Source of the DNA: Candidatus Omnitrophota bacterium
GTDB lineage: Bacteria > Omnitrophota > Gorgyraeia > B26-G9 > JBDRCZ01
Length of the DNA: 64,000 nt
Assembly (NCBI GenBank): GCA_043821285.1
Contig: JBDRCZ010000017.1
Span: forward strand, 15,947-79,946
Direction: 5' to 3'
Shown here: positions 40,422-62,900 of the stretch, piece by piece
Position numbering within the stretch: the first letter of the stretch is position 1
How the letters are laid out: every line of letters begins with the position of its first letter
Position numbers and translations under genes: made by a program
The notes under the pieces: generated by a model
What the model was told of the DNA's origin: nothing
What the model saw: only the letters and a program-made list of their open reading frames with translations
Database searches by the model: none

Positions 40422-40446
40422 AAAAAATTGCCATAGGCAATTTTTT
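40422..40446 (-). terminator. terminator hairpin after G3
   Basis: Minus strand reads AAAAAATTGCC-TAT-GGCAATTTTTT then AGTTTACC. Overlaps the stop codon by 2 nt. Confidence 0.55.
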
Positions 40447-47854: not shown

Positions 47855-47879
47855 TAAAAAATTGCCGCAGCAATTTTTT
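47855..47879 (-). terminator. terminator hairpin after G4
   Basis: Minus strand reads AAAAAATTGC-TGCG-GCAATTTTTT then AGTTTACC. Confidence 0.55.
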
Positions 47880-50800
47880 AGATTGCTTGTTCTACTGCCA
47901 ACATTTCATTCCACTCTAACTCTGTAAGTGCAGGGGGTTGTTTAGGCATTGTTGTCAATTGTCCTGGGTTATTATCATGAGGATCCAGTCTTTGCTGCTC
48001 TACAATCTTTATTGCTGCTTCAATAATCGCTGCAGTGTCCATCTTATGTGCACGGTATAATATCTCGTGACTTCTTGCGGATTGTCCCCAACCTTGGATT
48101 CCTAACGAAGTTACAGTTGAACCAGTTGTAAGCAGAGATGAAGTTACTACCTTACTTACTGCTCCGCTTAATATTTTTGGAGAAGCGTCTTGAACAGTAA
48201 TTATTGGCACTCCCCGTTCAAGAAGAGGTGGTAAAGCTTCATCGATTAAATCCAATCTGGTCAAATTTATTACTTTTGCGGTAATATCTTGACTTTCCAA
48301 TTGTTCGCTCGCGGCAATTGCAAATTCCACCATTGCTCCGGCAGCAATAATAATAATATCGCTATTTTGTCCGTTTTCTCTTGGATCTTTAATTACATAA
48401 GCACCTTGTTCTGGACTGGGATTTTCTCCTCTATTTAAAACTGGAACATTTTGACGGGTAAGCTGAAGATAAGAAGGTCCTTTACCATCTAATGCCCTGT
48501 GCATAGCAAAATCTACTGCTTCTTCAGCCTCACGGGCATCTGCAGGTATAAAACCAGTCATTTTTTGCAAAAAAGAAATATAGCGAATAACGCCAGCAAC
48601 GATTACTGACTGATGAGTAGAACCGTCTGGCCCAACGCCTAAGCCGGCATGACTTAACGCAACAATTACCGGTAGTTTTGCCCGGGCAATCACAATTATT
48701 TGACTAATCATTCGGTTAGCAAAACAATCAAAGGTTGCGATAACTGGTATCTTACCATATAATGCTAATCCAGCAGCAATTCCTGCCATTGCTTGTTCTC
48801 TTACTCCGGATGGAACGTATCTTCCATTGGTGTTATGACGAGAAAAAATGCCAAAGTCCCTAGCAAACCAATTCAGTCTTGTAGAACTGGCAATGTCCGC
48901 GCAGAAAGCAATAATCTTTTCGACGCGTTTTCCCCAGTCAAGCATCCTGTTACCAAAACCATCACGTGTAGCAAAATTCCTATTTGCTTGGTATCTAATT
49001 TCTGCCGGTGTTTGTAGCATTGTCATTTGAACCGGCTCTGGCTCTTGTGTTTGTTTAATGTTGCTATAAATAAGCAGATTGAATTCCCCAATCTTATAAG
49101 GAACCATTCCATTCAATGCTTCCATAATTGTTGTGGCCATGATGTGTTCATCAAAACCCCGGGTAATAATTAAAACAGGTTTTCCTGTATTATCCTTGTT
49201 TAGCTGTTCAAAGGTTTGACCTAAGATTTCAGCCTGTTCTTGATTATTATTAGCATTGAGCTCAATCACTCTCCAACCATAAGCTTGCCAAATATTAACT
49301 AATTCCGTGTTTGTCTCTGAAGCTTGAAGGACTAAGCAGAGATTATCTATGCCATTGTGTGCGGCGAATCTAGCTGTTTCTGCAAACTGACCTTCTCTTT
49401 CTTCTTTTTCCGTGGCTAAAGCAATAACTCTGCCAGATGCTGTATCCATTTTAGCTCCAAAAGCTATACCTGCGGCCAGAGAAAGACGCATACCCGCAGG
49501 GAATATTTCTTGAGGACTAAAATCTATTTTCATAAGCCCGTCCGTGGGTTTTTCTTTTCCATCAACTAATTCTTTTGCTACTTCTATTATATTTTCAATA
49601 TCCTTGTCACTCATGGACCAAACAACGGAACCTGCGGTTTTAGAAGATGAAGTTACAGTCCTGCTTACCGCATCACCTAAACATACTGGCAATCCATCAT
49701 AAATTGTAAGAATACGGCTTCCTGGCTCAATATACTCTAAGAGCTCACTTCCTGCACCTAATGAGTCTAATTGCGTAACATTTATGATCTTAGTCATCGT
49801 ACCTTGTGATTCTAACTCATTACTGACTTTTATGGTTTGATGAAGACTTTTACCTGAAGAAATAAGAATAACCCTCTTTTTTGCCGTGTCCCACCCTTCA
49901 GATTGACTTATAACATAGGCACCTTGCTCTGGCTGGGGATTTTCTCCTCTATCTATAACCGGAAGATCTGCAGAACTTAAACGAATATAAGAAGCAGTGT
50001 ACTCATCTGGGATATTAAGTGATGTAGGGGCTTTATTTGTTATTTTAGCCAATAATAATGCATTTTTTATTGCCATATCAGTCAACTCATTAGTTTCATT
50101 AGGATCCCCTGGTTCTAACGCAATTACATTATGCATCAGGTCCATAACTCCTGGGGTAAAACTTAACTCTTCAGATTCAGCCGCTAAAATAAACGGTACC
50201 CTTGCCTGAGCATTTATCCTTAATTGGTCTAACATTTTCATCGCATCATTTTCCGGCAGAAAGACAATCGGCAGCATACCCGAATAACCAAACCCAGCAG
50301 CAAAACTGGCTAAGTGCTGTTCTCTATCCTCAACTAAGAAACATCGCTCGATGAGTTTATTTCTTATATCTTCATCAGTAATCTGTGCAATAAATTCATC
50401 AATAAATCTTTGTTTAGAATCGGAATTATTAAAAATAAATACTATCCGTTCATCTTTTTCTGCCCACTGGAGTAGTCTATTTTTAAATGCAACAGATGGA
50501 GAGACTTCCTCATCCTGTGCATAGTTGGTTCTATCTGGTATTGTTGTCGTGTCTGTTTTTTGTAGAGTACTCTCTTTTGATAAATTGTTTTCTTCTTGTT
50601 CTGTCATTTGGTTATCTGAAATAAATCTATCTACATCTGTTGAAAATCCATAAAAATTCATTTGTTGACTAATATTTTCAATTGTGTTTTCTATTTGGGG
50701 GATAGCTTCAGATAGTTCTTTATCATTTAATGCTCTACCGTGAAACGCGGTTGGATCATCTTCCATAAAATCTACGCCTTTACCTTTTTTTGTCTTGGCA

Positions 50801-53553
50801 ATAATTGCTGTTGGCTTGTTTTTAATGTTTCTTGCTTCTTCACAAGCCGCGATAATTTCTAATGGTTCATGGCCATTAATTTCAATAACATGCCAGCCAC
50901 AACCTCTCCACGAACCTGCGACATCCGCACTATCTACTTCTTTAGTCAAGCTATCAATTTGTGCGCCATTAGCATTTACAAATAAGGTAAGATTATCTAA
51001 CCCTAATTCCGCAATATGCCTGGCAGCCTCTGCATATTGTCCTTCCTGTTCTTCCCCATCACCGGCAATAGCAAAGACGTTGGAGTCACGTCCATGCATT
51101 TTAGCTAGAAGCGCCATACCCGCGGCATTGGAGAGTCCCATACCTAAGGAACCGGTCAAGGCTTCTATACCACGAGTACAAATCCAGTCAGTATGTCCAG
51201 GAAGTCCACTGTTTAACTCTCTTAAATGGGATAATTGCTCTTTTGAAATATAGCCAAGTTTAGCTAAAATAGAATAAACTGCTGGCGCTATATGCCCTTC
51301 AGAAATAACTAACCGGTCACGGTCTGGCCAGCGCGGGTCATTTGGTGTATGATTCATAATCCGCGTTCCATCGGAATATCGTCCAAGATATAAAGTGACC
51401 AGTATCTCAGCCGCAGAGAGCGAACCTCCTGGATGTCCTGAACCAGCTATATTAATCATCTCCAGAATATCATTACGGCACATTTCTGCGATTTTCTTTA
51501 ACATCAAGCTTTGGCGCTGCTGTTCTATATAGTCTTTTCGCCAAAAAGCACCAATTATCAAAACACCAACAAGAAATATAGTATATGCGATCAATAAATG
51601 TATTGGAGATTGAAACAGTGTCATTATTGGTATTGAAATGGTTTCAAAACGATGGCTAAATGTTTTTAGTAGTTCGACAAAAGCTAATAAAATCGCACCA
51701 ATTGTGCCCAATAAGGCATAGGGGTTGAATTGTCGAAGGGTTAAATCTTGAGGAAATATATCTGAATTGTGGGGTGAAACATTAGAATCATCCCCTTTCC
51801 TTTTTAAATATTCTATTGCTCCATTAACCACCAAAAGAGCCCTAAAATATGCCTCTAAATAATCTTCTGCTGTTGTAAGAATAATTTTTTGATCATCTAA
51901 TCCAGAACGTGCTATCGGGTGACCTAAAATGTTTTCGTTTTCAGCCATTCTTTGTGAAGCAATCTTCCGCATATGTGTCCAGTTATGAAGTTGATTTACG
52001 CCTTTCAGCGGTAATAAGAGAGGGTTTCTTATACCCTGTGAGGTATAAAATTTTTCAACATCCTCGTCTTTGAGACCTGTCTGCTCTGGCACAAAATGAG
52101 GAGTATCACTAGGATATGCAGCCTCTGCCAAAAAAACATTTGCTGTTATTCTCCCCGAAGAATAATGTTCTGTTACACATTTTAGGTAAAAAACCAATGT
52201 TCCATTTAAAGCAGAGTCAATAAAGCATACTTGCGATGTATTATTATCAATAATTCCTTCATCAATTAACTGCTCATAAGTTTGTTTTGCTTGTTCAGCA
52301 AAAACCGTGTTTGTTTTTAATGTTTCTTCAAAGGATTGTCTTAATTGTGGATAGAAATTTTCCGGATCTCCTTGTTCTGTAGTATTGCGGCGAACTTTTC
52401 GCAATGTGTCTTCAATAATCTTAAAATTGTCGCGTTTTCTTTTTTCCGGAGTAGGATGATCATCTCCTATATAACCTAACATTTTTCGATCAAGATAAAA
52501 TACAAAAGAATTATCAGGGGGAGCCCCTTTTGTCAAAAGACTCAAATAATACTCGGACTCATAGTAAATTGCTCCATCACGTGCTAAATAAACTCTTCGT
52601 CCTTCAGCAGGTAATTGTTCTAATAAATAAGGGATGATTTTAGCTGTGCCTATTAACCACATAAAAGAATCTTTTTTTTGTCTTGAAGTCAAAAAATGGC
52701 AAAGGCTTCTTAGCTTTATATTCAAACTTCCAGTAAATAAGCCTTGATTTCTTACACCTTGTTCTGTCATTACCAATAACTCTTGCTCTCTTCTTCGTAA
52801 TTCTTCTGCTATTTCTACGTTACTTCTCCATCTCAATTGGTCTGGTTTAAGAACTTGATAATGCGTGCGTACCTCATGCCCTTCGATCGGGCTTAAAAAA
52901 TGTATCGGAAATGTTGGACTTATTTCTGGTACATTAATAGAGGTTAACATCATTTCTAAATCCATGGCTATACCTTCTTCGCCGAGTGGATGTCTTAATA
53001 CTGATAATGCGCGCTCTTTAACTTTATCATTGGGGTCTTCCAATATTATTTTTTTCAAAAATTCAACAACCTTTGTTTTAGCTGTCTCACTTTTGTTCCC
53101 AACAATTCCCAAGAGCCGTATTAAATTACTGCGTGGATTGTCTAACACAACACCACCACGATAAAGAAGATCATCAGGGTCAATAATGGTTGGATCATCC
53201 CAAGCAGCGATTAAGGCATTTATCAGTATAATAGCATCGAGACTTAATAATTTTGGAGCTTCATTTCGTCTCCAAATATTAAACTGCGAAAAAGTTAATC
53301 TTAAAACTTGCGTTAGTTCTTCCCTTTTTATCTCTATAGGGTACTTATTTACTGATTGTGTAGATATACCAAGTGTATTTTGTTCAAAAGGCTCTGTAAG
53401 TGAAGACTTACTTATCTCTAAAGGAGGCGAGAGGTGGGTGGACAAATTTTTCAAATTACTATTTGCCGCCCATGAAATGTCAAGACATAAAAAAGAGTTG
53501 ATTAATATAAAGGCTGTTAGTTTGAATAAAATGTCCCGTTTTATTTTTTTCAT
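47878..53553 (-). CDS. giant-family protein G4 (1891 aa) with two tandem split-type transketolase units
   Basis: N-terminus MKKIKRDILFKLTAFILINSFLCLDISWAANSNLKNLSTHLSPPL; C-terminus ...EMLAVEQAI. TM cluster at aa 612-671, transketolase-like sequence from aa ~685 to ~1850. Confidence 0.85.
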   Translation of the reverse strand: MKKIKRDILFKLTAFILINSFLCLDISWAANSNLKNLSTHLSPPLEISKSSLTEPFEQNTLGISTQSVNKYPIEIKREELTQVLRLTFSQFNIWRRNEAPKLLSLDAIILINALIAAWDDPTIIDPDDLLYRGGVVLDNPRSNLIRLLGIVGNKSETAKTKVVEFLKKIILEDPNDKVKERALSVLRHPLGEEGIAMDLEMMLTSINVPEISPTFPIHFLSPIEGHEVRTHYQVLKPDQLRWRSNVEIAEELRRREQELLVMTEQGVRNQGLFTGSLNIKLRSLCHFLTSRQKKDSFMWLIGTAKIIPYLLEQLPAEGRRVYLARDGAIYYESEYYLSLLTKGAPPDNSFVFYLDRKMLGYIGDDHPTPEKRKRDNFKIIEDTLRKVRRNTTEQGDPENFYPQLRQSFEETLKTNTVFAEQAKQTYEQLIDEGIIDNNTSQVCFIDSALNGTLVFYLKCVTEHYSSGRITANVFLAEAAYPSDTPHFVPEQTGLKDEDVEKFYTSQGIRNPLLLPLKGVNQLHNWTHMRKIASQRMAENENILGHPIARSGLDDQKIILTTAEDYLEAYFRALLVVNGAIEYLKRKGDDSNVSPHNSDIFPQDLTLRQFNPYALLGTIGAILLAFVELLKTFSHRFETISIPIMTLFQSPIHLLIAYTIFLVGVLIIGAFWRKDYIEQQRQSLMLKKIAEMCRNDILEMINIAGSGHPGGSLSAAEILVTLYLGRYSDGTRIMNHTPNDPRWPDRDRLVISEGHIAPAVYSILAKLGYISKEQLSHLRELNSGLPGHTDWICTRGIEALTGSLGMGLSNAAGMALLAKMHGRDSNVFAIAGDGEEQEGQYAEAARHIAELGLDNLTLFVNANGAQIDSLTKEVDSADVAGSWRGCGWHVIEINGHEPLEIIAACEEARNIKNKPTAIIAKTKKGKGVDFMEDDPTAFHGRALNDKELSEAIPQIENTIENISQQMNFYGFSTDVDRFISDNQMTEQEENNLSKESTLQKTDTTTIPDRTNYAQDEEVSPSVAFKNRLLQWAEKDERIVFIFNNSDSKQRFIDEFIAQITDEDIRNKLIERCFLVEDREQHLASFAAGFGYSGMLPIVFLPENDAMKMLDQLRINAQARVPFILAAESEELSFTPGVMDLMHNVIALEPGDPNETNELTDMAIKNALLLAKITNKAPTSLNIPDEYTASYIRLSSADLPVIDRGENPQPEQGAYVISQSEGWDTAKKRVILISSGKSLHQTIKVSNELESQGTMTKIINVTQLDSLGAGSELLEYIEPGSRILTIYDGLPVCLGDAVSRTVTSSSKTAGSVVWSMSDKDIENIIEVAKELVDGKEKPTDGLMKIDFSPQEIFPAGMRLSLAAGIAFGAKMDTASGRVIALATEKEEREGQFAETARFAAHNGIDNLCLVLQASETNTELVNIWQAYGWRVIELNANNNQEQAEILGQTFEQLNKDNTGKPVLIITRGFDEHIMATTIMEALNGMVPYKIGEFNLLIYSNIKQTQEPEPVQMTMLQTPAEIRYQANRNFATRDGFGNRMLDWGKRVEKIIAFCADIASSTRLNWFARDFGIFSRHNTNGRYVPSGVREQAMAGIAAGLALYGKIPVIATFDCFANRMISQIIVIARAKLPVIVALSHAGLGVGPDGSTHQSVIVAGVIRYISFLQKMTGFIPADAREAEEAVDFAMHRALDGKGPSYLQLTRQNVPVLNRGENPSPEQGAYVIKDPRENGQNSDIIIIAAGAMVEFAIAASEQLESQDITAKVINLTRLDLIDEALPPLLERGVPIITVQDASPKILSGAVSKVVTSSLLTTGSTVTSLGIQGWGQSARSHEILYRAHKMDTAAIIEAAIKIVEQQRLDPHDNNPGQLTTMPKQPPALTELEWNEMLAVEQAI
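48004..49521 (-). other. G4 transketolase unit 2: truncated/degenerate PP part, intact Pyr + C-terminal domains
   Basis: The PP remnant has TEKEEREGQ where GDGExxEGQ is expected. The Pyr domain has ATRDGFG, VREQAMAGIAAGLA, GPDGSTHQ. The C-terminal domain has IIIIAAGAMV...AKVINLTRLD. Confidence 0.75.
49564..50511 (-). other. G4 transketolase unit 1, Pyr + C-terminal domains, degenerate
   Basis: Collinear with the unit 2 Pyr domain (shared DRGENPQPEQGAYVI / NRGENPSPEQGAYVI), but the GxDGxTHQ position reads ESEELSFTPGV. Confidence 0.6.
50719..51501 (-). other. G4 transketolase unit 1, TPP (PP) domain, motifs intact
   Basis: SGHPGGSLSAAEILVTLY, DRDRLVISEGH, GSLGMGLSNAAGMA, GDGEEQEGQYAEAARHIAELGLDNLTLFVNANG. 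Confidence 0.8.
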
Positions 53554-53751: not shown

Positions 53752-55232
53752 ACAGTACTTTGTTAAAAATCAGGTCTTTTCAAAAAAATCATTTACGTAA
53801 GTCGTGAAAACTCATAACTTATGTAATTTCAATACTTTACGTTAATTTTTTCCTTGACAATATCCACAACTCCTGCTATGGTATATAGTTGTAATCAAAC
53901 CACCGTAACACACAACAGGAGGTGGATATGGGTATTTTTAATCTCACTATTTCGGTAATCAATAATTTCTTATTTCGTTTTAAACCTGCCTTCTCAAAAA
54001 AACAATTTATCGTTTTCTCCTTCCTGATCTATGCTTTGTTTAAAGACTACAAGAGAAATTCCCTTTATGCCCTCGCCTCTAAAACTCCAATCAACTATCA
54101 GGCTTGTCAGTACTTCTTATCTGAAGGAAAATGGAGTATCGATGATCTTAATAATATAAGGTTAAAAATTATTGAACATCAAAGAACTACTTCTGCTACT
54201 TCCTCCGGCGTCTTAGTTATTGATGATACTTCTCCTAAGCCTTTTGCTAAAGCTACCGCCGGTGCTAAACGTCAACACTGTGGTGTCTTAAATCGTGAAG
54301 AAATCTGTAATGTTGCTGTATTCTCTGCCTTCGCCTCCAAAACTAAACGCTTCCCGATAAACCTTAAATCTTATCTCCCCGCTGAAAAATTCTTATTTGG
54401 CAAAGAGGATGTAGATTTTAAAAGTAAGCTCGATCTTGCCCAAATATTAGTCGATGATGCCTTAGAAAGAAAAATTAAATTCTCTTCCCTCGTCATAGAT
54501 GCATGGTATGCTCAGTCTTCACAATTCCTTGAGTTTGTTCACTGCCAGAGAAAACTGCCCTTCATTGGTGAATTAAAGTCCAATCGTAACATCTTCTTTT
54601 ACCATCCGCTAAAGCGGAAACACTGCTGGATCCAGCAGGATGAGCTGGTGAAACTCATCAAAAAACATTATCCGCATAAGTGTAGGTTTTTTACCTCCAC
54701 GAGCAAAGATGGTAAGAAGAAGTCTTGGGTCTTCTACACCTTCAAGGGACTGCTGAAAGATTGTTCTGTTCCCTTAAGCATAGTGGTGATCTTTGGTAAG
54801 TGGGATAATCAGGATGATAAGAATGTTCATATCCTTATCTCCAATCAGACCCGCCTGGCTACTAAGACCATCATTTCCACCTACCTGCTTCGTTGGGGAA
54901 TAGAGCTTATCTTCAGGGAGCTCAAGGATGTCTTCTCCTTTGACCAATACCAGGTTAGACATACCAAACAGATCGAACGTTACTAGACACTATGCCTTAT
55001 TGCATGGAGCCTGTTATATTGGGTCAAACAAAATGCCTATCTTACCAAAATCCTTGAGCATAAACCTGCTACCTTCTATGACTACAAACAGGCCATTGAC
55101 TCCTTACTCCTTTATGATGCTCATCAGTCTCTTTCAAAGAACAGTCATCTTGCTCAGAAATATTTTAAAATTAAATCGGATAATTTTAAACAGCAAATCG
55201 CTCGCGTTGCCTGATTTTTAACAAAGTCCTGT
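53752..55232 (+). mobile_element. IS4/IS701-like insertion sequence (1481 bp)
   Basis: 23-bp terminal inverted repeats ACAGTACTTTGTTAAAAATCAGG (53752-53774) and reverse-complement ACAGGACTTTGTTAAAAATCAGG (55210-55232), 1 mismatch. Direct 6-bp flanks TCTATC (53746-53751 and 55233-55238). Confidence 0.8.
53922..55214 (+). pseudogene. DDE transposase (IS4/IS701-like) interrupted by an in-frame TAG
   Basis: VLVIDDTS, LVIDAWY, YLLRWGIELIFRELK blocks. TAG at 54984-54986, after which the same frame continues 75 codons (TLCLIAWSLLYWVKQN...QQIARVA) to TGA 55212-55214. Confidence 0.65.
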
Positions 55233-55287
55233 TCTATCATTTAAAACATATAGTAGACAGCAAACTGTACACTGTAAACGGTAAACT

Positions 55288-55312
55288 AAAAATTGCCGAT
55301 GGCAATTTTTTT
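55288..55312 (-). terminator. terminator hairpin after G5
   Basis: Minus strand reads AAAAAAATTGCC-ATC-GGCAATTTTT then AGTTTACCGTTTAC. Confidence 0.55.
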
Positions 55313-58300
55313 AGATTGCCTGTTCCACGGCCAAAACCGTATTCAATCCTACTCCTTCAAGTAGCGGAAGTAAAGACATCAATTTCTGCATAGGCTTTTC
55401 ACCCTGCTGTCTGCAACCATCTGGAGTGTCTTTTCTTTCTCCATCTTCCATGAAACTCTGAGAAGCTAAATATCTCATTAGTTCTCCTGTTTGATTAGGA
55501 TTGGTTACTCTTACTATCGTAATATTTTCAACTTTAAGAACTAATCGATCATTACCTCCACTCCAAAATTCATCACCAATATATATGTCAGCTGCTGCAT
55601 CTATTACAGCCGCGGCTTTATCTTCTAAGTTTTCAGTATGTTCTTCTACAAAATCTCCCATTTTTTCATCATAGATGAATTTATGATACCCCGGTTCAGA
55701 GGATATGGTATAAAGAACAAGATTTTTTAATAAACCCTGCTTATCTTTCGGGATAGCAAATAATACCTGGCCTTTTACATTAAATATGTTTCCGCCAGTA
55801 ATTATTCTTAGCTTATATCCAACCTCAAGTAAGTTAAGGAATGCATCCAGATTATCTTCTCCGATTATTCCCCAGTAAGGAACAAGTGTGCCATCCATAT
55901 CTATTCCTATAACCTGAATTTCTTCTAACGGTACATGGCCATTTATAATATCATGGACATTTAATGGAGTATTTTGGGTTGTATCTACTGGGGATAGCGT
56001 GCCAAGTGTTTGTTTTGGGACAAAACTGTTTTCTTGCTCACGCTTTGCTATAAATTTACGGTGTGCAAGGACAATAAAGGTAGAAAGTGCAAGACCTTTA
56101 CCCTGCAATTCTTCTACTGTTTCACGGTTATCTTTAAGCTGCGGATCTAAATATGCCGCCAATAATTGCATAAGCAAAGGTTCATTAAGTAATAAATCTA
56201 CTCCCACGTTAACTTCTTGATAAAGTTTTTTTGCCTTTACATAGTCTGAAAAAAGTTCTCCTAATAACGAGGATTCATTGGTTAATTCCGCATACAAATT
56301 ATCGAATATTTCTTCTACAGATATTAATATATCATTGTACATTTCATCAGAAAGATGGCTTCTTAAAAATTCTTCTTGTTCTTGTACTTTCCACGGAGGT
56401 AGATATTTACTTCTCAAACCGTATTGATTTAAACATTGCTCTAACTTATAAAAGATTATTTGTTCAAGAACACTCTCATTATCAACTTTACTGATCAAAT
56501 TTTCTGGCAAGCGGTTTTTAATAAGATTTTTAAGCAGTGTACCAGTCGCCGATGTACTCAATCCGGTTCCATCAGCAAGTGAGTTTGGTGTCCATTCAAA
56601 AGGCAGCCATTCTGACACAACTATTCCGTGAAGATACTCTCTTCCAAAAGATATTCTTCCTCTTGTTCCTAAACCAAAAGTGTGAAGTTGAATGCCAAAT
56701 TGTTCGTTAAGCTTAGCATTTGTAACAGTGGAAGAGTCAGAATTTTTAAGAAGAGCAGCGAAATGTGCTTCAACCTCTGCTAATGAATCAAGCAAACACC
56801 TTGCTTTATGAAGAGTTACACCAGTTTCAACAATATCATCAATTATAAGAACGTTGCGGTGTTCTCTGAGATACTCGACGACCTTTGTATCATTTAGAAA
56901 TAACCGCAGGTCTTCAGGAGAATCTAAAGAGTATACATCTCTTTCAAAACCCAAACGCACCCTTTCAGCTTCTGTCAATAATGACCAAATTATTGTTGTT
57001 AAATTTAACTTTTGAGTAATAATCCAACTTTGGAATTCAGGTATTTCCTTATTAAATAAGTTATTCGCTTTTAACTGAGTAAGCAAAATTTCCAATGCTT
57101 TGGCAATTGGATCAGCTCCTTTTGAGGGAAAGATAACTAAATTTATATCGTGTTGGATTAAATATTTAACAATAGGAAGAAGTATAGGAGCAAATTGCAA
57201 AACTTGTATGTCTGTTCCTAAAGAATCTATGTCTCCAATTTCTTCACCTAATGCAGCTTCGACCGCCTGCCGAAGCTTTCCAGTATATCTGGAGCGATAA
57301 GGACTACGCAGATATCCTTCAATCGTTGGCAAGTTTTTTGCGATCTCCTTTTCAAGCTCTTCTTCAGCCCTCAAAAACATCTGATGCCCTGTTTCTGTCC
57401 TGAATAAAGTTTCACCCAGAAAATTGCCGTCATCTTTGCCTGATTTTTCATAAAGTCTATACTCTTCTTCAAGGCGCTCTTTATTAGTTTTAAATCTGGC
57501 TCGGATCTGTTCAGGTGTTATTTCTATTCCCGCAGCTTCTAAATCAGCAATAATCCCTTGATAAGTACACATAAATAATCTGTCTGCCTCACGCCATACT
57601 GTTATTAATCTATAAAAAGAAGAAGCATTAGCAAAAGGCCCTTCAAAATTAAACAAAAACTGTCCTTTTTCATATAAAGAAGTATCAACACCCATATTTC
57701 TAAGCTCTACTAAGGCCTGTTCAATAGAAGGATTATCATGAGCTTTTACCACACCACAGATTAAATTTACATTTACATCAGTTGCACTTAAAATACCGGT
57801 TGAAATTAATTGTTGGATTAATTCCCTAATCATTTCGGGGGCTTTTTTCATATGCGCAAGCCTAAACGCGATTGTGTTCTGCGCTAATTCTTTTGCCTTT
57901 AACGAATTTCTCTGTTCAATTTTCTTGCGTATTTGAATAATTCTTGCCCGTGAGCCTTCTAACTTGGCGTACCCAATATCATGTAATAAGGCTAATATTG
58001 CTGCGTTTTTAAATTCTTCATAGGTAAAATCTTCTCCTAATCCAATCTGCACCGCGTTCTCTAAGACTTGAGTATGATGATTTACAGGGTTGCCATTTGC
58101 TCCAGCTTTAAAATGAGGTAAGGCGCTCCAAAAAAGTGTGAAGAGAATATTTTGAATTTCTTGTTTTTGCTGGTCTGTAAATGTGCGGTCTTTTTCAATG
58201 CGGCTTAGTGCATTTTCCAAATTCTGAACTGCTAAACTTTTCTTACACTGAACAAGATAGTAGCCATTCTTTTCTTCAATTACTGCTTCTAATCCATTGT

Positions 58301-59036
58301 CTGTAAGAAATTGTTCAAATTCTGCTTTATTAGAAAAACTAAATCGACCACGTCCAGCGTTTATTGGTTCGGCAATCAATATTTCACCTTCTGAACTAAC
58401 TGCCCGAATATACTCCTTTAATAACTGATCACGTTCTTCACGATTACTAAACATGGTAAAGAACCGAATGCTGACCACTTTAGAAAAACTTCCGTCTTTA
58501 AACCGCATGTCCAAGGCACTGGCTTTTACCAAATCAACATTTTTGCTATCTTGCTTTCTATTTTGAGCAATGTTAAGTAAAATTTCATTGGTATCTAACC
58601 CTGTTATATGTTTGCAAAATTGAGAAATATAAAAAGTGAAATGTCCGGAACCACAACCTATTTCTAAAACTTCATCATCATTATCAATATTAGCTTCAAG
58701 CCAGTCTTTAGGGAAGTCTACAAGATAAGATGCAAGCGTACGATCATAAAAATAGGAAAAATATATCTTTTTGAGCCAATCAACGAGTCTTTCAGTCCAA
58801 GACCTGTGAGGAGAAATATCTCGTGTATCGTTAGGCAGCTTTAGCTGAGTTATATTTATTGTTTCTGCAACGTGTTCTTTAAGAATAGAATTATTTATTT
58901 GCAAAGGCGGAGCAAGGTGGGTGGACAAATTTTTTAAATTACCATTAGCAGCCCAGGAAATATCTAAGCATAAAAAGGCGTTAATTAATATAATCGCTGT
59001 TAGTTTGAATAATATATTTTTTTTAATGTTCAACAT
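55311..59036 (-). CDS. giant-family protein G5 (1241 aa): methyltransferase-HD-PRTase-HAD fusion
   Basis: N-terminus MLNIKKNILFKLTAIILINAFLCLDISWAANGNLKNLSTHLAPPL; C-terminus ...NTVLAVEQAI. GGAGA lies 8 nt upstream of the ATG. Confidence 0.85.
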   Translation of the reverse strand: MLNIKKNILFKLTAIILINAFLCLDISWAANGNLKNLSTHLAPPLQINNSILKEHVAETINITQLKLPNDTRDISPHRSWTERLVDWLKKIYFSYFYDRTLASYLVDFPKDWLEANIDNDDEVLEIGCGSGHFTFYISQFCKHITGLDTNEILLNIAQNRKQDSKNVDLVKASALDMRFKDGSFSKVVSIRFFTMFSNREERDQLLKEYIRAVSSEGEILIAEPINAGRGRFSFSNKAEFEQFLTDNGLEAVIEEKNGYYLVQCKKSLAVQNLENALSRIEKDRTFTDQQKQEIQNILFTLFWSALPHFKAGANGNPVNHHTQVLENAVQIGLGEDFTYEEFKNAAILALLHDIGYAKLEGSRARIIQIRKKIEQRNSLKAKELAQNTIAFRLAHMKKAPEMIRELIQQLISTGILSATDVNVNLICGVVKAHDNPSIEQALVELRNMGVDTSLYEKGQFLFNFEGPFANASSFYRLITVWREADRLFMCTYQGIIADLEAAGIEITPEQIRARFKTNKERLEEEYRLYEKSGKDDGNFLGETLFRTETGHQMFLRAEEELEKEIAKNLPTIEGYLRSPYRSRYTGKLRQAVEAALGEEIGDIDSLGTDIQVLQFAPILLPIVKYLIQHDINLVIFPSKGADPIAKALEILLTQLKANNLFNKEIPEFQSWIITQKLNLTTIIWSLLTEAERVRLGFERDVYSLDSPEDLRLFLNDTKVVEYLREHRNVLIIDDIVETGVTLHKARCLLDSLAEVEAHFAALLKNSDSSTVTNAKLNEQFGIQLHTFGLGTRGRISFGREYLHGIVVSEWLPFEWTPNSLADGTGLSTSATGTLLKNLIKNRLPENLISKVDNESVLEQIIFYKLEQCLNQYGLRSKYLPPWKVQEQEEFLRSHLSDEMYNDILISVEEIFDNLYAELTNESSLLGELFSDYVKAKKLYQEVNVGVDLLLNEPLLMQLLAAYLDPQLKDNRETVEELQGKGLALSTFIVLAHRKFIAKREQENSFVPKQTLGTLSPVDTTQNTPLNVHDIINGHVPLEEIQVIGIDMDGTLVPYWGIIGEDNLDAFLNLLEVGYKLRIITGGNIFNVKGQVLFAIPKDKQGLLKNLVLYTISSEPGYHKFIYDEKMGDFVEEHTENLEDKAAAVIDAAADIYIGDEFWSGGNDRLVLKVENITIVRVTNPNQTGELMRYLASQSFMEDGERKDTPDGCRQQGEKPMQKLMSLLPLLEGVGLNTVLAVEQAI
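55482..55919 (-). other. G5 HAD-superfamily phosphatase-like segment
   Basis: Motif I VIGIDMDGTL and motif IV-like IYIGDEFWSGGND. Confidence 0.6.
56637..57239 (-). other. G5 phosphoribosyltransferase-like segment
   Basis: PRPP-binding-type motif NVLIIDDIVETGVTL preceded by LVIFPSKGADPIA. Confidence 0.65.
57717..58094 (-). other. G5 HD-domain segment
   Basis: HHTQVLENAVQIG...AAILALLHDIGY. Confidence 0.6.
58242..58754 (-). other. G5 class I SAM-dependent methyltransferase segment
   Basis: VLEIGCGSGHFTFYIS (motif I), ITGLDTN, ALDMRFKDGSFSKVVS. Confidence 0.75.
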
Positions 59037-59560
59037 AATAAATATCTCCAGTTATTTAATTTTAAATGTCCCGCCTATCAAACCGGCGACAGGCAAATGA
59101 ATCATTAAATAATTCAATCTTTAAAATTTATTTATGTAATTTGTGTGATTTGTTGTTAATAAAATAAGTACTTGAAATCTTTCTTTGTGTGCTCCGTGTC
59201 TCTGTGTGACAAATCTAATATTTTTGTTTCGCTTGTCCGCCGTGCTCTGTTTGGCGGGTCATTCTGGTTTCGTTATTCGTTATTAAATTATCCTGTCTAT
59301 CATCCACAATGATTGGCGGATCTTCAATTTTTTATATTTTCTCTGTGAACTTTGCGAGCTCTGTGGTGATAAATTTTTTATTTTTTTTTACCGCGATACT
59401 CAATACTCATTGCTTTTTATAGTGTGCGCTCTGTGATGATAATTTTTGTTTTGTTTTTTTAGCCACAATGCTCAATACACAATACCCGATACTTAATCAT
59501 ATTACTTTTCATAATGCCTTGTTATAAATAAATTTATAACATCTTTTAAATAGTTTTATA

Positions 59561-59935: not shown

Positions 59936-59960
59936 AAAAAGTTGCCATAGGCAACTTTTT
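59936..59960 (-). terminator. terminator hairpin after G6
   Basis: Minus strand reads AAAAAGTTGCC-TAT-GGCAACTTTTT then GTTAACCGTTTACTGTTTACC. Confidence 0.55.
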
Positions 59961-62900
59961 AAATTGCCTGTTCTATAGCATACACCATATCTAATTCAAA
60001 CAAGTTAATCTCTGGCGCATCATCCGGTTGAGATACAATCATTAGAGCAGTGCTTGGTTTTATAGGAGGATTATTTTGATCTAACTCATCTGGGTCATTG
60101 CGGAAAGACCCATATTCATCTTCGCTCCAGGGATAACAATATATTGAAGTTCCCCCATCCTTTTTTTTCTCAAGAAGACCGTATTCTGATAATCGATTAA
60201 GAACTGTCCTTACCCTGTCTGTGCCCATATATCTATAATTGCGGAATTCATCTCTCAATACCTCAGCAACCTCTGATGCTTTAAACTCCCTACCGTTAGC
60301 AAAATTCGCCCAGACTGTACGAAGTATAACTTTTTCATTACCGGGCTGATTGTTCTCCTGTAGTGTAATATTGTCCCAGTAAGATAAATATGATTGGTCA
60401 AATTCCTCTTTTGACAAATCCCGCAATTCCCGTTTATGTTCTTGGTCAATTGCTGCCATCTCACGATATACAATGCATTTGTTTAAGTGTGCGAGTGACA
60501 GCAATAACGGCACATTTTTTATCTGCCCCTTGTTTATTCTTTGCGTTTCTGATATTCTTAAAATCTGTTTATAATATTCTATTGTTTTGTCATAACACGA
60601 TAGTGCTTTTATATATTCTTCTTTATCATTTTGCTCAAAACCATTTTCCGCATATTCAGCGCCTTCTTCAGCATACCATGCAGCTGCTTCTGTAAAAATA
60701 TCTACTGCACCAGCAAAATATTTTTCCTTAATATATTTACTAGCTAACGCTTTATAAACATTAGCGGACATTGGCATACTGCTATCTGGATAAAATTGTT
60801 TTCCTGTTGACTGGTTACTAGTTCTCGTGTGTGATGGTATTATCATTCTTGCAGGTGTGCTACTTTGGGGAGAAACTCCATTATATGTTGTATCAAAACC
60901 CCTAGTATATGCGAATTGCCATTTTTGTGGTATGATATTTCGTAATACCTCCGCGATAAAGGCAGGTGGGGTTAAAATCCAATTTGCTACCTTGATTAAG
61001 GCTTCAGAATATCTTTTACCTTCTAATTTATCCTCCATCCATTTTAGTACTGTAGCGCGCTGCCAGAAGCCAAGATATTCTCCAAAGAAATAGAAAAATA
61101 CTACTGCTGCCCATCCTCCCACACCCGCCAGGTCAAAAGGTATAATTAAACGGCCCGCACCTCTATTTCTGAGTCTATCTTGTATAACAAAATGCGGCAG
61201 TGGGACATTAAACCTTAATATCTGCCTTTCTCTACTTAATATTAAATCAGCATTGCCTAAATTTGCTTTACCGATAACTTCATCTATAATACTCCTCACA
61301 ATCACTTTTTCTCGATTATTACACCCGCGGTAAATCGCTCTAAAATATTCTCTTAGTAGAGAACGGATCATTATAAGCTGAACATTGTCTTGTCTTATGT
61401 ATACTTCAGCAGCTGAACGTACTGCTATTTCAAGTGCTTCTTGTTTGTGCGCTGGCAATATTCTGTATGTCTGATTAGCCACTGTGCCCCTATCTTGTGT
61501 GACATAAGGGGCTATCACTTTAAAAAGTACATGCCGTGCATCTGCTTGAGAAAGATATACTAATCCTTTTAATGTGTCATCCATGACCGCTTTAGTTAAC
61601 GGGTGTTGTCCTGGATTTTGAATAGAACTGTAAATTCTAGCGATAATTTCTATATTAATTCTCTCTATAGGTGTAGAATCTATTTTAAATTCATAGCTTC
61701 CTACATCGTCTTTTCTAACGGTCTGCACAATTTCATTTACTTTTTGAATAATCTCTTGTCTTTCATCTTTTAAAAGGCCTATATCTTCTCTTGATAAAAA
61801 GCTTGCTAAAAACTCCAGTTCTAATGCTTGCTGAAGAGCATTTTCTGGAGAAAAATTATTAATCCCTTGTTTAAGAGCATCCATCATGGAAACTTCTAAG
61901 TTTATACCAGGGCGATAAGTGTGTAAAAAAAACCTTTTGATATTGATAAATTCTGGCAAAAGAATAACCTCTTTAGTGTCTAAATTTATAGTCTCATTTA
62001 TAGTTTCTTCTAATATAGAGCTAAACGGGCGAAGAAGTACTAATCTTTCATAAAGAGTCTCATCTGAATGAAAAAATGTTAAATAGATCACAAGTCTTAA
62101 ATAATAATCCGCCAGAAAAACACCATCTACAGTAAACTCTATGTTACCATCTTTATCTCTACGGCTTACAGTTAAACATTTGTACAAAAAATTATCTATC
62201 TCTGTAAGCATCCGATATAAGATTTCCATCGCGGTTTCTGTATTCTGTTCTAAGGCAAGCTCAAGAACATTAGTGACATTTGAGAAATCTTGCAAAACAA
62301 CATATTCTTTAAGAACACCCCATAGACTATCAAACAACTCATGGTCTTCACGATGATAAGCAAATGCAGCCAGGCCAACAAATGACGCTAAGTTTGCTTT
62401 TAAATTTAAACCGGTATTTATCAAATAGCTTATTTCCTTTTCTATATAAATGAGTATAATTTTAGAAACATCACCTCCGGCAATAAAGGTATAAACAATC
62501 ACTGCAAAAAGGGCGTCGTGTAATTCCTCATCTTCCGGAGATATATTTAATCGTTGAAGTATTTCAGCCAACACTGCTATTACCATATCAATTTCTTCGA
62601 TATTATCTTGTATATGCACGCGCATTTTATTAATAAAAAATACCAAAACATGGCGAAGTTCATTTTTTAGATGACTGTCCAATTTTTCCCAGTCTCCTTC
62701 TTCCGTTTCTGTTAAACTTTGTATTTCAGCTTGGACACGGTCTAATTCTTCATTCAACGAGTTTATTCTTTCTGTATTTGAAGGGGCCGGACTTCTCTGT
62801 CTCTGTCTTTGTCTCTGCCGCCTTGAGCTTCTTGGTTCTGACCTACGCTGTAAGTTTTGTATTTCCCGGGTAATCTCTTGCTCTCGCCCTTTCAGCGCCG

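What the first reader, a model, noticed from the sequence alone, without database searches (positions are those of the whole stretch)
55311..59036. G5 strings four small-molecule enzyme folds (SAM-methyltransferase, HD, phosphoribosyltransferase, HAD phosphatase) behind the family signal module
Motifs read directly:
- VLEIGCGSGHFTFYIS (methyltransferase motif I, aa ~123-138)
- ALLHDIGY (HD, aa ~349-356)
- NVLIIDDIVETGVTL (PRPP-binding loop, aa ~728-742)
- VIGIDMDGTL plus IYIGDEFWSGGND (HAD motifs I and IV, aa ~1042-1163)

I do not recognise this order of domains in one 1241-aa chain as a known architecture. It reads like a nucleotide or sugar-phosphate tailoring pathway condensed into one polypeptide and tagged with the N-module and EQAI tail.
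Basis: partly seen in the sequence, partly recalled or inferred. Interest (0 to 1): 0.65.

Follow-up and report, generated by a model that had tools for sequence, protein, structure and literature searches.

The report
Exported four-enzyme ribose-phosphate tailoring protein
This gene from an uncultivated Omnitrophota bacterium does encode four enzyme modules in a row behind a shared export signal, and the "phosphoribosyltransferase" part is an undescribed 430-residue module whose closest structural match is the enzymes that add ribose to bacterial surface sugars.

Summary
Window 55311-59036 (-) is an intact 1241-aa ORF, identical to a protein of a Candidatus Omnitrophota MAG, and all five quoted motifs sit at the stated residues.

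All four fold calls are supported:
- **Methyltransferase:** strong Pfam match (E 1e-16).
- **HD, PRT and HAD:** each is below the Pfam cut-off for G5 alone. Each is confirmed once relatives are used to build family profiles, or by structure prediction.

Two calls need refining:
- **HAD:** it is a PMM/alpha-PGM-type HAD-IIB core with all four motifs, but its cap is deleted.

No other protein with this domain order was found.

Best reading (confidence about 0.4) is a ribose-5-phosphate-centred tailoring line. The module would transfer phosphoribose from PRPP, the HAD would remove the 5-phosphate, and the methyltransferase and HD would add further steps. The neighbouring transketolase gene G4 would be the linked supplier.

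The main problem is location. The N-terminal signal peptide predicts export, away from PRPP and SAM.

This is a new variant of known kinds. Interest 0.5.

The parts
55311..59036 (-). G5, complete ORF of 1241 aa plus stop codon
58947..59036 (-). aa 1-30, Sec-type signal peptide. It has a basic n-region (K5, K6, K11), a hydrophobic core LTAIILINAFLCL and a c-region DISWA|A. This is the head shared with G1-G4 and P0005.
   Evidence: Hydropathy 2.19 over aa 8-26, and the only strongly hydrophobic segment in G5. Alignment A5 shows invariant F10, L17, I18, N19, F21, C23, L24, D25, W28, A29. The cleavage site and the N-in orientation are inferred from the -3/-1 rule and the positive-inside rule.
58899..58946 (-). 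aa 31-46, conserved post-signal segment NGNLKNLSTHLAPPLQ (the 'LAPP' motif)
   Evidence: The same (F/L)LAPP motif follows signal peptides in another Omnitrophota MAG.
58242..58730 (-). aa ~103-265, class I SAM-dependent methyltransferase. Motif I is VLEIGCGSG, and the acidic residue after beta-2 is at GLD148.
   Evidence: Pfam Methyltransf_11/25/31 at E 1e-16 to 2e-11, above cut-offs. NCBIfam CpaM- and UbiE-like hits lie far below the equivalog cut-offs.
57342..58238 (-). aa 267-565, HD phosphohydrolase module (~300 aa) with invariant H320, H352-D353, H395, H433-D434 and D485
56037..57323 (-). aa 572-1000, PRT-fold module. Order: N-terminal helices, beta-alpha-beta, helical insert, PRPP-loop half of the core, then two C-terminal helical bundles.
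57108..57125 (-). aa 638-643, SKGADP loop after the first core strand (PPi-loop position). S638, D642 and P643 are invariant in the family.
   Evidence: The comparison with CriT loop 1 (S678-R679-D680) comes from the text of PMC10299916 and is an inference.
56811..56855 (-). aa 728-742, PRPP / ribose-5-phosphate loop NVLIIDDIVETGVTL. D733 and G740 are invariant, and position 734 is D or E.
55467..55925 (-). aa 1038-1190, HAD-IIB (PMM/alpha-PGM/Cof-type) core. Motif I is DMDGT (D1046, D1048), motif II T1080, motif III K1140, motif IV GDEFWSGGND. The C2 cap is deleted.
55314..55382 (-). aa 1219-1241, mildly hydrophobic C-terminal segment ending in the family tail LAVEQAI
   Evidence: The tail is encoded with different synonymous codons in G1 and G2, so it is conserved at the protein level.
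55288..55310 (-). Hairpin plus T-run directly after the stop codon (AAAAATTGCC-ATC-GGCAATTTTT), shared with G3, G4 and G6
   Evidence: The pattern scan did not call it, because it has too few G-C pairs.
59071..59097 (-). Conserved 5'-leader element TTTGCCTGTCGCCGGTTTGATAGGCGG (hairpin), shared with G2 and G3
   Evidence: No Rfam family matches it.
47878..53553 (-). G4, a neighbouring family member with a double transketolase. It is inferred to be the functional partner of G5.
   Evidence: Pfam and NCBIfam transketolase hits. P0006 is collinear with G4 aa 683-1840 and then continues into the G5-type module.

Best explanation
G5 is an intact gene of an uncultivated Omnitrophota bacterium. Behind a Sec-type signal peptide that it shares with at least four neighbouring genes (a sixth shares only the tail, because its start lies off the window), it carries four catalytic modules:
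- a class I SAM methyltransferase
- an HD phosphohydrolase with a full H..HD..H..HD..D ligand set
- a ~430-residue phosphoribosyltransferase-fold module
- a cap-less HAD-IIB phosphatase core

The most likely function is a ribose-5-phosphate-centred tailoring line. The PRT-fold module would bind PRPP through its conserved SKGADP and DDxxxTGxT loops and transfer ribose-5-phosphate to an acceptor. That acceptor is most plausibly a sugar or glycan hydroxyl, as in the glycan phosphoribosyltransferases gPRT and CriT. The adjacent HAD has an open active site because the cap is missing, and it would remove the 5-phosphate. The methyltransferase and HD modules would add a methylation step and a second phosphate-ester hydrolysis on the same or a related substrate. 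The transketolase protein G4 next door would belong to the same pathway as the supplier of ribose-5-phosphate.

**Shown here:** the ORF, the four folds, conservation of the catalytic motifs, the recurrent natural fusions of the module, and the uniqueness of the architecture.

**Inferred:** PRPP as donor, the nature of the acceptor, the order of the reactions, and the cellular location.
For: 1. **Folds and motifs.**
3. **Same domain plan as CriT.** The model's element order is helices, beta-alpha-beta, helical insert, PRPP-loop half, then two helical bundles, over 440 aa. This matches the published CriT plan HB1a-CAT1-HB2-CAT2-HB1b-HB3 of 438 aa (PMC10299916).
4. **Matching two-step logic.** Known Ribf-transferases pair the PRT module with a HAD phosphatase that removes the 5-phosphate (PMC11294581; PMC11194591; PMC11231755). 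G5 has a HAD 40 residues after the module.
5. **Open HAD site.** The HAD keeps all four catalytic motifs but lacks about 70-90 cap residues. By my own knowledge of C0-type HADs, this fits a bulky substrate.
6. **Fusions to ribose-5-phosphate suppliers.** The module is fused to a G4-type double transketolase in P0006 and to ribose-5-phosphate isomerase A in P0011. G4 is the adjacent family gene here.
7. **Related modules sit with sugar-activating enzymes.** These are a ROK kinase with the HD module in P0003, a guanylate kinase plus a stretch that looks by eye like a UDP-sugar pyrophosphorylase (not profile-tested) in P0005, and PMM/alpha-PGM-like HADs in 4.4-kaa proteins.
Against: - **The HAD differs from the known partner.** Domain order is reversed (PRT then HAD, against PRP then gPRT). 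The HAD is a different subfamily, with the IIB/C2 cap position and an intact DxD. CrpP has a cap inserted in the flap and only the first Asp.
- **The pairing is not general.** Only 1 of 7 module-bearing proteins carries a HAD.
- **Context does not fit glycan synthesis.** No glycosyltransferase, ABC-transporter or Wzx/Wzy genes lie nearby. Two other module genes sit next to SSF solute symporters instead.
- **Location.** G5 has an N-terminal signal peptide and no other membrane segment. It is therefore predicted to leave the cytoplasm, where PRPP and SAM are made.
- **Classical feature retained.** The module keeps the vicinal DD/DE of classical PRTs, whereas CriT splits these acids between two loops.
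- **Model quality.** The AF2 model rests on a 7-sequence alignment.
Confidence: 0.4

Rival explanations
1. **Envelope nucleotide scavenging.** G5 is exported to the periplasm or cell surface of a host-dependent nanobacterium. There the HD and HAD modules act as nucleotidases on nucleotides released from prey or host. The PRT-fold module binds or processes the ribose-5-phosphate moiety of nucleotides, for example N-glycoside cleavage or the reverse reaction, rather than using PRPP. The products are then taken up by transporters.
For: The signal peptide with no further membrane segment predicts export. All four superfamilies include nucleotide-acting members. NCBIfam near-hits include 5'-nucleotidase-type HADs and purine PRTs. 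SSF symporter genes flank module genes in two independent contexts. Omnitrophota are proposed to be predators or parasites (PMC10066038). From my own knowledge, periplasmic HAD phosphatases are an established precedent (AphA and e(P4)).
Against: A SAM-dependent methyltransferase has no cofactor outside the cell. Transketolase and RpiA fusions to the module make little sense for scavenging. The HAD family is PMM/alpha-PGM-like, that is sugar phosphate rather than nucleotidase. The structural best matches are glycan PRTs.
Confidence: 0.22
2. **Secreted effector.** G5 and its neighbours are delivered onto or into prey or host cells using the shared head and EQAI tail as sorting signals. There they use the victim's PRPP and SAM to deplete or modify its nucleotide and sugar-phosphate pools or its surface polymers.
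For: Cytoplasm-type cofactor-dependent enzymes sit behind an export signal. Six tandem genes share the tail, and five of them share the head, while their bodies are unrelated. The HD module belongs near Pfam HD-CE. There is a weak ShosT-like hit on the PRPP loop. Relatives of the modules occur in 3.6-4.4-kaa proteins with related signal heads. The literature reads Omnitrophota giant multi-enzyme proteins as extracellular, prey-directed machinery (10.1101/2023.11.21.568195; 10.64898/2026.06.07.730766).
Against: No secretion-system genes lie adjacent to the cluster. The only such gene in the window is a PilZ-T2SSE ATPase about 17 kb away. PADLOC hits are generic. The module is unrelated to PRTase-CE by hhalign. 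There is no evidence at all that the tail is a sorting signal.
Confidence: 0.18
3. **Largely non-catalytic mosaic.** The divergent PRT-fold module and the cap-less HAD are ligand-binding or structural remnants in a surface or membrane-associated scaffold protein, and only the methyltransferase is active.
For: HD, PRT and HAD all score below curated cut-offs for G5 alone. The HAD cap is deleted. Non-enzymatic PRT-fold proteins exist and appear among the hits: PyrR, PurR and PRPP-synthetase-associated protein.
Against: Every canonical catalytic or ligand residue that can be checked is retained in G5 and invariant in each family: HD ligands, the DD/DE and TG loop, and HAD motifs I-IV.
Confidence: 0.12
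4. **Assembly or gene-calling artefact.** The 1241-aa chain is a chimera of separate genes joined by MAG mis-assembly or a frameshift.
For: The protein is known from one contig only. An IS element lies immediately downstream, between G5 and G4.
Against: The frame is uninterrupted, with family-typical 5' leader, head, tail and 3' hairpin at its two ends. Module junctions of the same kind occur naturally in independent assemblies: P0006, P0011, P0003 and P0002.
Confidence: 0.03

Closest known systems
Dual-domain glycan ribofuranosyltransferases (PRP phosphatase + gPRT: Thermobacillus composti 7SHG, K. pneumoniae O4/O7, Salmonella STM0726) and the CrpP/CriT pair of the Hib capsule polymerase Bcs3 (8A0C)
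   Different: No detectable sequence homology. Domain order is reversed. The HAD is a IIB PMM-type core without a cap, rather than the PRP/CrpP type. The classical vicinal DD is retained. G5 has a signal peptide, whereas these are cytoplasmic enzymes. There is no polysaccharide gene cluster around it. G5 also carries extra MTase and HD modules.
Type I phosphoribosyltransferases and PRPP synthetase (HGPRT, XPRT, OPRT, APRT, PyrR)
   Different: G5 scores below the Pfam and NCBIfam cut-offs (22 bits against 26.3). It is 430 aa against about 180. It has no hood-type base-binding subdomain, but helical bundles instead. It is fused to transketolase or RpiA and to signal peptides.
HAD-IIB phosphatases and mutases (PfHAD1/Cof-type, eukaryotic-type phosphomannomutase, L. 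lactis alpha-phosphoglucomutase)
   Same: Motifs I-IV are present, including the PMM-like GDxxxxGGND spacing. The family profile scores 7e-11 to PfHAD1, 2.5e-10 to alpha-PGM over its full length, and 3e-8 to 1e-6 to PMMs.
   Different: G5 has only 59 residues between motifs II and III, against 126-151 in its own relatives. The C2 cap needed for sugar-bisphosphate handling is therefore missing, which makes mutase activity unlikely.
HD superfamily / Pfam HD-CE (PF24391)
   Same: H..HD..D ligands plus an additional H and HD. All four family members hit PF01966 and two hit HD-CE.
   Different: It is a ~300-aa module with its own conserved N- and C-terminal extensions. G5 itself is below both cut-offs. 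The only PDB sequence match is marginal (2pq7, E 0.09).
Long and giant multi-enzyme proteins of Omnitrophota ('Archaeovorin-type'; West-Roberts et al. 2023 preprint; 2026 complete-genome preprint)
   Same: Same phylum. G5 has an N-terminal signal peptide, strings of methyltransferase, HAD and other metabolic domains, and modules homologous to ones inside 3.6-4.4-kaa proteins with related signal heads.
   Different: G5 is 1.2 kaa rather than 10-100 kaa and has no internal membrane helices. It belongs to a tandem set of six genes with a shared C-terminal EQAI tail, five of which also share a near-identical head. The passages of those papers that I read do not mention such a head or tail.

Membership tests
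Class I SAM-dependent methyltransferase (Pfam Methyltransf_11/25) | Profile score above the curated cut-off | tested here: met
   60.5 bits against 21.2, and 58.5 against 27
Class I SAM-dependent methyltransferase (Pfam Methyltransf_11/25) | Motif I GxGxG and an acidic residue at the end of beta-2 for the SAM ribose | tested here: met
   VLEIGCGSG at aa 123-131 and GLD148, read from the sequence
HD phosphohydrolase superfamily (PF01966 / HD-CE) | Profile score above the curated cut-off | tested here: inconclusive
   G5 alone scores 15-17 bits against 22. Its 40-47% identical relatives pass: P0002 scores 42.8 bits on PF01966 and 32.3 against 27 on HD-CE.
HD phosphohydrolase superfamily (PF01966 / HD-CE) | Metal-ligand pattern H...HD...D | tested here: met
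   H320, H352-D353 and D485 are invariant in alignment A2, plus H395 and H433-D434
Type I phosphoribosyltransferase fold | Pfam Pribosyltran score above the cut-off | tested here: not met
   20.7-22.3 bits against 26.3. Only 2 of 7 family members give any hit.
Type I phosphoribosyltransferase fold | PRPP loop (four hydrophobic residues, two acids, xxx, T/S-G-x-T) | tested here: met
   VLIIDDIVETGVT at aa 729-741. D733 and G740 are invariant and position 734 is D or E in all 7 members.
Type I phosphoribosyltransferase fold | Parallel-sheet alpha/beta core superposable on solved PRTs | tested here: met
Type I phosphoribosyltransferase fold | Hood subdomain forming a nucleobase pocket | not tested
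   No residue-level superposition was possible with these tools. The model shows helical bundles where the hood would be.
PRPP-dependent glycan ribofuranosyltransferases (gPRT+PRP; CriT+CrpP) | gPRT architecture: PRT-like core with an inserted helical bundle and flanking helical bundles | tested here: met
PRPP-dependent glycan ribofuranosyltransferases (gPRT+PRP; CriT+CrpP) | Sequence homology to characterised members (members find each other by BLAST) | tested here: not met
   The family profile at E up to 10 does not retrieve 7SHG or 8A0C
PRPP-dependent glycan ribofuranosyltransferases (gPRT+PRP; CriT+CrpP) | N-terminal PRP-type HAD phosphatase with an invariant nucleophilic Asp | tested here: not met
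   A HAD with D1046 is present, but it is C-terminal to the module and of the IIB PMM/Cof type with no cap. CrpP has a cap inserted in the flap and only the first Asp.
PRPP-dependent glycan ribofuranosyltransferases (gPRT+PRP; CriT+CrpP) | Cytoplasmic enzyme encoded in a polysaccharide-assembly locus (GTs, ABC transporter or Wzx/Wzy) | tested here: not met
   G5 has a signal peptide and no other membrane segment. Its neighbours are other head-and-tail family genes and an IS. Other module loci show SSF symporters and unannotated genes.
PRPP-dependent glycan ribofuranosyltransferases (gPRT+PRP; CriT+CrpP) | Uses PRPP to make an O-linked ribofuranose-5-phosphate | not testable with these tools
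   This needs biochemistry
HAD superfamily, subfamily IIB (Cof / PMM / alpha-PGM) | Four catalytic motifs (DxDxT; T/S; K; GDxxxD/ND) | tested here: met
   DMDGT 1046-1050, T1080, K1140, GDEFWSGGND 1153-1162. D17, D19, T21, T51, K111 and G125 (fragment numbering) are invariant in A4.
HAD superfamily, subfamily IIB (Cof / PMM / alpha-PGM) | Significant profile or sequence match | tested here: met
   G5 alone scores 3.1e-5 to PfHAD1. The family profile scores 7.3e-11 and 2.5e-10. Pfam Hydrolase_3 for G5 alone is below the cut-off at 16.3 against 20.9.
HAD superfamily, subfamily IIB (Cof / PMM / alpha-PGM) | C2 cap domain between motifs II and III | tested here: not met
   59 residues in G5 against 126-151 in five relatives
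Omnitrophota long/giant multi-enzyme proteins | Omnitrophota origin, N-terminal signal peptide, serial metabolic enzyme domains, modules shared with multi-kaa proteins | tested here: met
   Literature.
Omnitrophota long/giant multi-enzyme proteins | Very large size (10 kaa or more) with many membrane helices | tested here: not met
   1241 aa, with one hydrophobic segment only

The most novel reading that the evidence does not exclude
G5 and its five neighbours may be cargo of an undescribed two-ended sorting system. The signals would be a conserved signal-peptide head with a 'LAPP' segment and a C-terminal hydrophobic-x-EQAI tail. The system would move cytoplasm-type, cofactor-dependent sugar-phosphate and nucleotide enzymes (transketolase, SAM methyltransferase, a PRPP-dependent ribosyltransferase with its phosphatase) out of the producer's cytoplasm. 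The destination would be prey cells or an extracytoplasmic compartment, so that a complete PRPP-dependent ribosylation and tailoring pathway runs outside the cell that encodes it.
Probability: 0.12. Interest if true: 0.85.

Novelty: new variant of a known kind. Interest (0 to 1): 0.5.

Why it matters
**A new PRT-fold family.** If the reading is right, the ~430-aa module is an unannotated branch of the recently discovered PRPP-dependent glycosyltransferase fold. It occurs in uncultivated Omnitrophota and is repeatedly fused to the enzymes that make ribose-5-phosphate. That would widen the known range of PRPP-dependent glycosylation well beyond pathogen capsules and O-antigens.

**A tractable test case for an open puzzle.** The Omnitrophota literature asks why proteins full of cytoplasm-type metabolic domains carry export signals. 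G5 is a 1.2-kaa example with no internal membrane helices, which makes localisation and activity experiments feasible.

**Annotation.** The work supplies seed alignments for three unannotated modules: the HD module, the PRT-fold module and the PMM-like HAD.

**If the reading is wrong.** The result is still a correct domain map of an orphan protein that is currently annotated only as 'methyltransferase domain-containing protein'.

Tried and rejected
**Searches and predictions that gave nothing**
- Single-sequence AlphaFold of aa 565-1241 was unusable (pLDDT 38).
- The word-indexed homologue search with aa 565-1241 returned nothing, not even the source protein. With the module alignment it returned only P0015. 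The exhaustive representative search was what found the relatives.
With G5+P0006 it found only the P0006 contig.
- Metagenome scans with the N-module and with the P0008/P0011/P0014 subfamily found nothing.
- Exact-protein contig look-ups for G5, P0001 and P0005 found nothing on record, so the DNA beyond the window end and G6's N-terminus were not seen.
- The afdb50 fold library was unavailable.
- Paper searches for HD-CE and PRTase-CE gave nothing usable.

**Hypotheses tested and rejected**
- The G5 module is not a member of Pfam PRTase-CE, the family present in relative P0007. hhalign gives probability 0.4%.
- G5 is not a member of a known defence system. PADLOC gives only a generic methyltransferase hit and a weak PRPP-loop hit.
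- No riboswitch (for example PRPP or SAM) lies upstream. Rfam finds only a tRNA in the window.

**Alternatives to a plain signal peptide, rejected by inspection**
- Lipoprotein signal: the residue before the invariant Cys23 is Leu or Phe, so there is no lipobox.
- Double-glycine or C39 leader: GG is not conserved.
- Prepilin-type signal: no matching motif.
- C-terminal tail-anchor: the tails of the paralogues are not hydrophobic.

**Other**
- P0012's 15 repeated matches were treated as compositional and not followed up.
- Pfam on six neighbouring genes of other module loci gave no hits.

Full report
**1. The object**

Window 55311-59036 (minus strand) is an uninterrupted ATG-initiated ORF of 1241 aa, with a GGAG 11 nt upstream of the start. 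It is 100% identical to a protein that NCBI names 'MAG: methyltransferase domain-containing protein [Candidatus Omnitrophota bacterium]', on an 85,997-bp contig.

G5 is the fifth of six large minus-strand ORFs:
- G1, 29833-32820
- G2, 33141-39581
- G3, 40445-47536
- G4, 47878-53553
- G5, 55311-59036
- G6, 59959 to beyond the window end

G1-G5 share a near-identical N-terminal ~55 residues. All six end in (I/V/A)E(Q/R)AI. Apart from head and tail their bodies are unrelated, except for one region shared by G3 and G6. A DDE transposase gene (53922-54986, + strand) sits between G4 and G5.

**2. Are the four folds real?**

*Methyltransferase: yes, unambiguously.* Methyltransf_11 scores E 2.6e-16, and several related families pass their cut-offs over aa ~103-236. 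NCBIfam finds only generic resemblance to CpaM- and UbiE-type enzymes, far below the equivalog cut-offs.

*HD: yes, through relatives.* G5 alone gives a sub-threshold PF01966 hit. However, aa 267-565 is a ~300-aa module that is 40-47% identical to modules in two metagenomic proteins. P0002 carries it twice in tandem, and P0003 carries it after a ROK-family kinase. All four copies hit PF01966 (best 8.7e-7) and two hit Pfam HD-CE. H320, H352-D353, H395, H433-D434 and D485 are invariant. This is the ligand pattern of metal-dependent HD hydrolases. I infer a two-metal site from the extra H and HD.

*HAD: yes.* G5 aa 1038-1107 matches the Cof-type sugar phosphatase PfHAD1 at 3.1e-5. Relatives found inside 3.6-4.4-kaa proteins (P0007, P0010, P0013) give a profile with these scores:
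- PfHAD1, 7.3e-11
- L. lactis alpha-phosphoglucomutase, 2.5e-10, over its full length
- eukaryotic-type phosphomannomutases, 3e-8 to 1e-6

G5 keeps DMDGT, T1080, K1140 and a PMM-spaced GDEFWSGGND. It has only 59 residues between motifs II and III, against 126-151 in its relatives. The C2 cap is therefore essentially deleted.

An exhaustive HMMER scan of 1.84 billion representatives with aa 565-1241 found six proteins sharing a ~430-aa module corresponding to G5 aa 572-1000. Pfam recognises nothing in these modules.

The invariant positions include:
- LLP..K
- S..DP, in the loop after the first core strand (G5 SKGADP, aa 638-643)
- D[DE]xxx[TSN]G (G5 DDIVETG)
- further G, DG and W positions

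The family profile hits PRT-fold chains in 27 of its 30 PDB matches, with PRPP synthetase best at 7.8e-4.

**3. What the module resembles**

The Bcs3 paper describes its ribofuranosyltransferase CriT as 438 residues arranged in this order: helical bundle, beta-alpha-beta half of a PRT-like core, inserted helical bundle, second half of the core, then two more helical bundles. S678, R679 and D680 lie in the loop after the first strand. E818 plus backbone amides lie at the 5-phosphate loop (PMC10299916).

The G5 model has the same order of elements over 440 residues. It has Ser-Lys-x-x-Asp in the corresponding first loop and Asp-Asp...Thr-Gly-x-Thr in the second. In the other family members the inserted helical segment is about 100 residues longer.

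Characterised enzymes of this kind work in two steps. The gPRT module transfers ribose-5-phosphate from PRPP to a sugar acceptor. A HAD-family phosphatase in the same polypeptide then removes the 5-phosphate. G5 has a HAD core 40 residues after the module, and its missing cap would leave the site open to a bulky substrate. That last point rests on my own knowledge of cap-less HADs.

**4. Links to ribose-5-phosphate supply**

P0006, from another Omnitrophota MAG, consists of a signal peptide, a double transketolase and then the G5-type module. The transketolase part is collinear with G4 aa 683-1840. G4 and G5 are adjacent here, separated only by the IS, so P0006 is a Rosetta-stone fusion of the two. 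P0011 consists of a signal peptide, ribose-5-phosphate isomerase A and the module.

Related modules keep company with other sugar-activating enzymes:
- a ROK kinase in P0003
- a guanylate kinase and, by eye only, a UDP-sugar-pyrophosphorylase-like stretch in P0005
- PMM/alpha-PGM-like HADs in the giant proteins

The common thread is sugar-phosphate, and specifically ribose-5-phosphate, chemistry.

**5. What does not fit**

- The domain order is reversed relative to known Ribf-transferases, and the HAD belongs to a different subfamily.
- Only G5 among seven module proteins has a HAD.
- The contexts of other module genes contain no glycan-assembly genes. In two independent cases they contain an SSF solute symporter next door.
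- The most serious problem is location. G5 has a basic n-region, a 19-residue hydrophobic core, an SWA|A c-region and no other membrane segment. By standard rules it is exported, yet PRPP and SAM are cytoplasmic.
- The same paradox is discussed for Omnitrophota giant multi-enzyme proteins. There, 94% carry signal peptides or membrane helices, and a 'metabolic cluster' reading was withdrawn on topological grounds (10.64898/2026.06.07.730766).
- Omnitrophota are proposed to be predators or parasites whose giant proteins act on target cells (PMC10066038; 10.1101/2023.11.21.568195). This keeps scavenging and effector readings alive.

**6. Verdict**

My best explanation (confidence 0.4) is a ribose-5-phosphate-centred tailoring line. 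Its core would be a gPRT-like transferase plus a phosphatase, with methylation and HD hydrolysis as added steps and G4 as the linked supplier. The rivals are:
- envelope nucleotide scavenging (0.22)
- a secreted prey-directed effector (0.18)
- a largely non-catalytic mosaic (0.12)
- an assembly artefact (0.03)

G5 is not a member of the characterised Ribf-transferase family by sequence, domain order, phosphatase type or context. It may nevertheless work like one.

I rate it a new variant of known kinds, namely Omnitrophota modular long proteins and PRT-fold transferases. It contains a module family that no curated library describes.

Noticed in passing
window 29833-64000 (-): There are six tandem large genes (G1-G6). 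G1-G5 have a near-identical ~55-aa head (signal peptide with invariant N19, C23, D25, W28, A29, then ...LKxLxTHLAPPL). All six share the C-terminal tail (I/V/A)E(Q/R)AI. Their bodies are otherwise unrelated. G6's N-terminus lies beyond the window. P0005, from another Omnitrophota MAG, has the same head and an ...LIEASI tail.
   Followed up: partly
window ~55240-55313 and the equivalent positions after the stops of G3, G4 and G6: There is a conserved 3' element: the stop codon, then the hairpin AAAAATTGCC-loop-GGCAATTTTT, then AGTTTACC...GGCAGTTTACCGTTTAC. The last codons of the EQAI tail (caG GCA ATc) repeat the hairpin's 3' arm, so an alternative pairing is possible. G1 and G2 encode EQAI with other codons and lack the hairpin.
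   Followed up: partly
window 59071-59097 and upstream of G2 and G3: A conserved 5'-leader element, TTTGCCTGT(C)CGCCGGTTTGATAGGCGG, forms a predicted hairpin about 40-60 nt before the ATG. It has no Rfam match.
   Followed up: partly
L001 (contig JBDRMW010000083.1, P0006 locus), 1202-24722: Another Omnitrophota MAG has an array of at least seven consecutive genes. Each has a signal peptide followed within about 4-10 residues of the predicted cleavage site by an (F/L)(L)(A/S/T)PP motif (FYLAPPSG, CLTPPG, FLAPPGG, LLSPPSQ, FLAPPGV, LLAPPAA). This is the same 'LAPP' as in THLAPPL here, and it may be a lineage-wide post-signal sorting motif.
   Followed up: no
L003/L004 8370-9737 and L005 9011-10492: A sodium:solute symporter (PF00474) gene lies directly next to the PRT-fold-module gene in two unrelated contigs.
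   Followed up: no
window 47878-53553 (-), G4: G4 carries about 570 residues of unknown function, then two or three hydrophobic segments (aa ~608-670), then roughly two transketolase units in one chain. P0006 shows the same unusual double-transketolase layout.
   Followed up: partly
window 40445-47536 and 59959-63891 (-): G3 aa 1734-2297 and G6 aa 324-910 are 36% identical (E 6e-98). This is the only body-to-body similarity within the cluster. G6 also has SNAP/TPR-like and winged-helix (Penicillinase_R-like) hits near its C-terminus.
   Followed up: no
window 53922-54986 (+) and 27148-27954 (-): There are two transposase genes: a DDE_5 type between G4 and G5, and an IS200-like Y1 type downstream of the cluster, beyond G1.
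   Followed up: no
window 11321-12718 (+): This gene encodes a PilZ domain fused to a type II/IV secretion ATPase (T2SSE). The 2023 giant-gene preprint reports PilZ and type II secretion genes near Omnitrophota giant genes.
   Followed up: no
P0010 and P0013 (4.4-kaa proteins from the representative search): Their N-termini (…ILIQSFLIYDFAWAG…, …TLIISFLSYDLSWAG…) are recognisably related to the head of G1-G5. This suggests that the FLxxDxSWA(A/G) signal is older and wider than this cluster. Each carries three or more PMM-like HAD copies.
   Followed up: partly
tool behaviour: The word-indexed protein search with aa 565-1241 returned no hit at all, not even the identical source protein. Negative results from that tool for this sequence are therefore weak.
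   Followed up: yes
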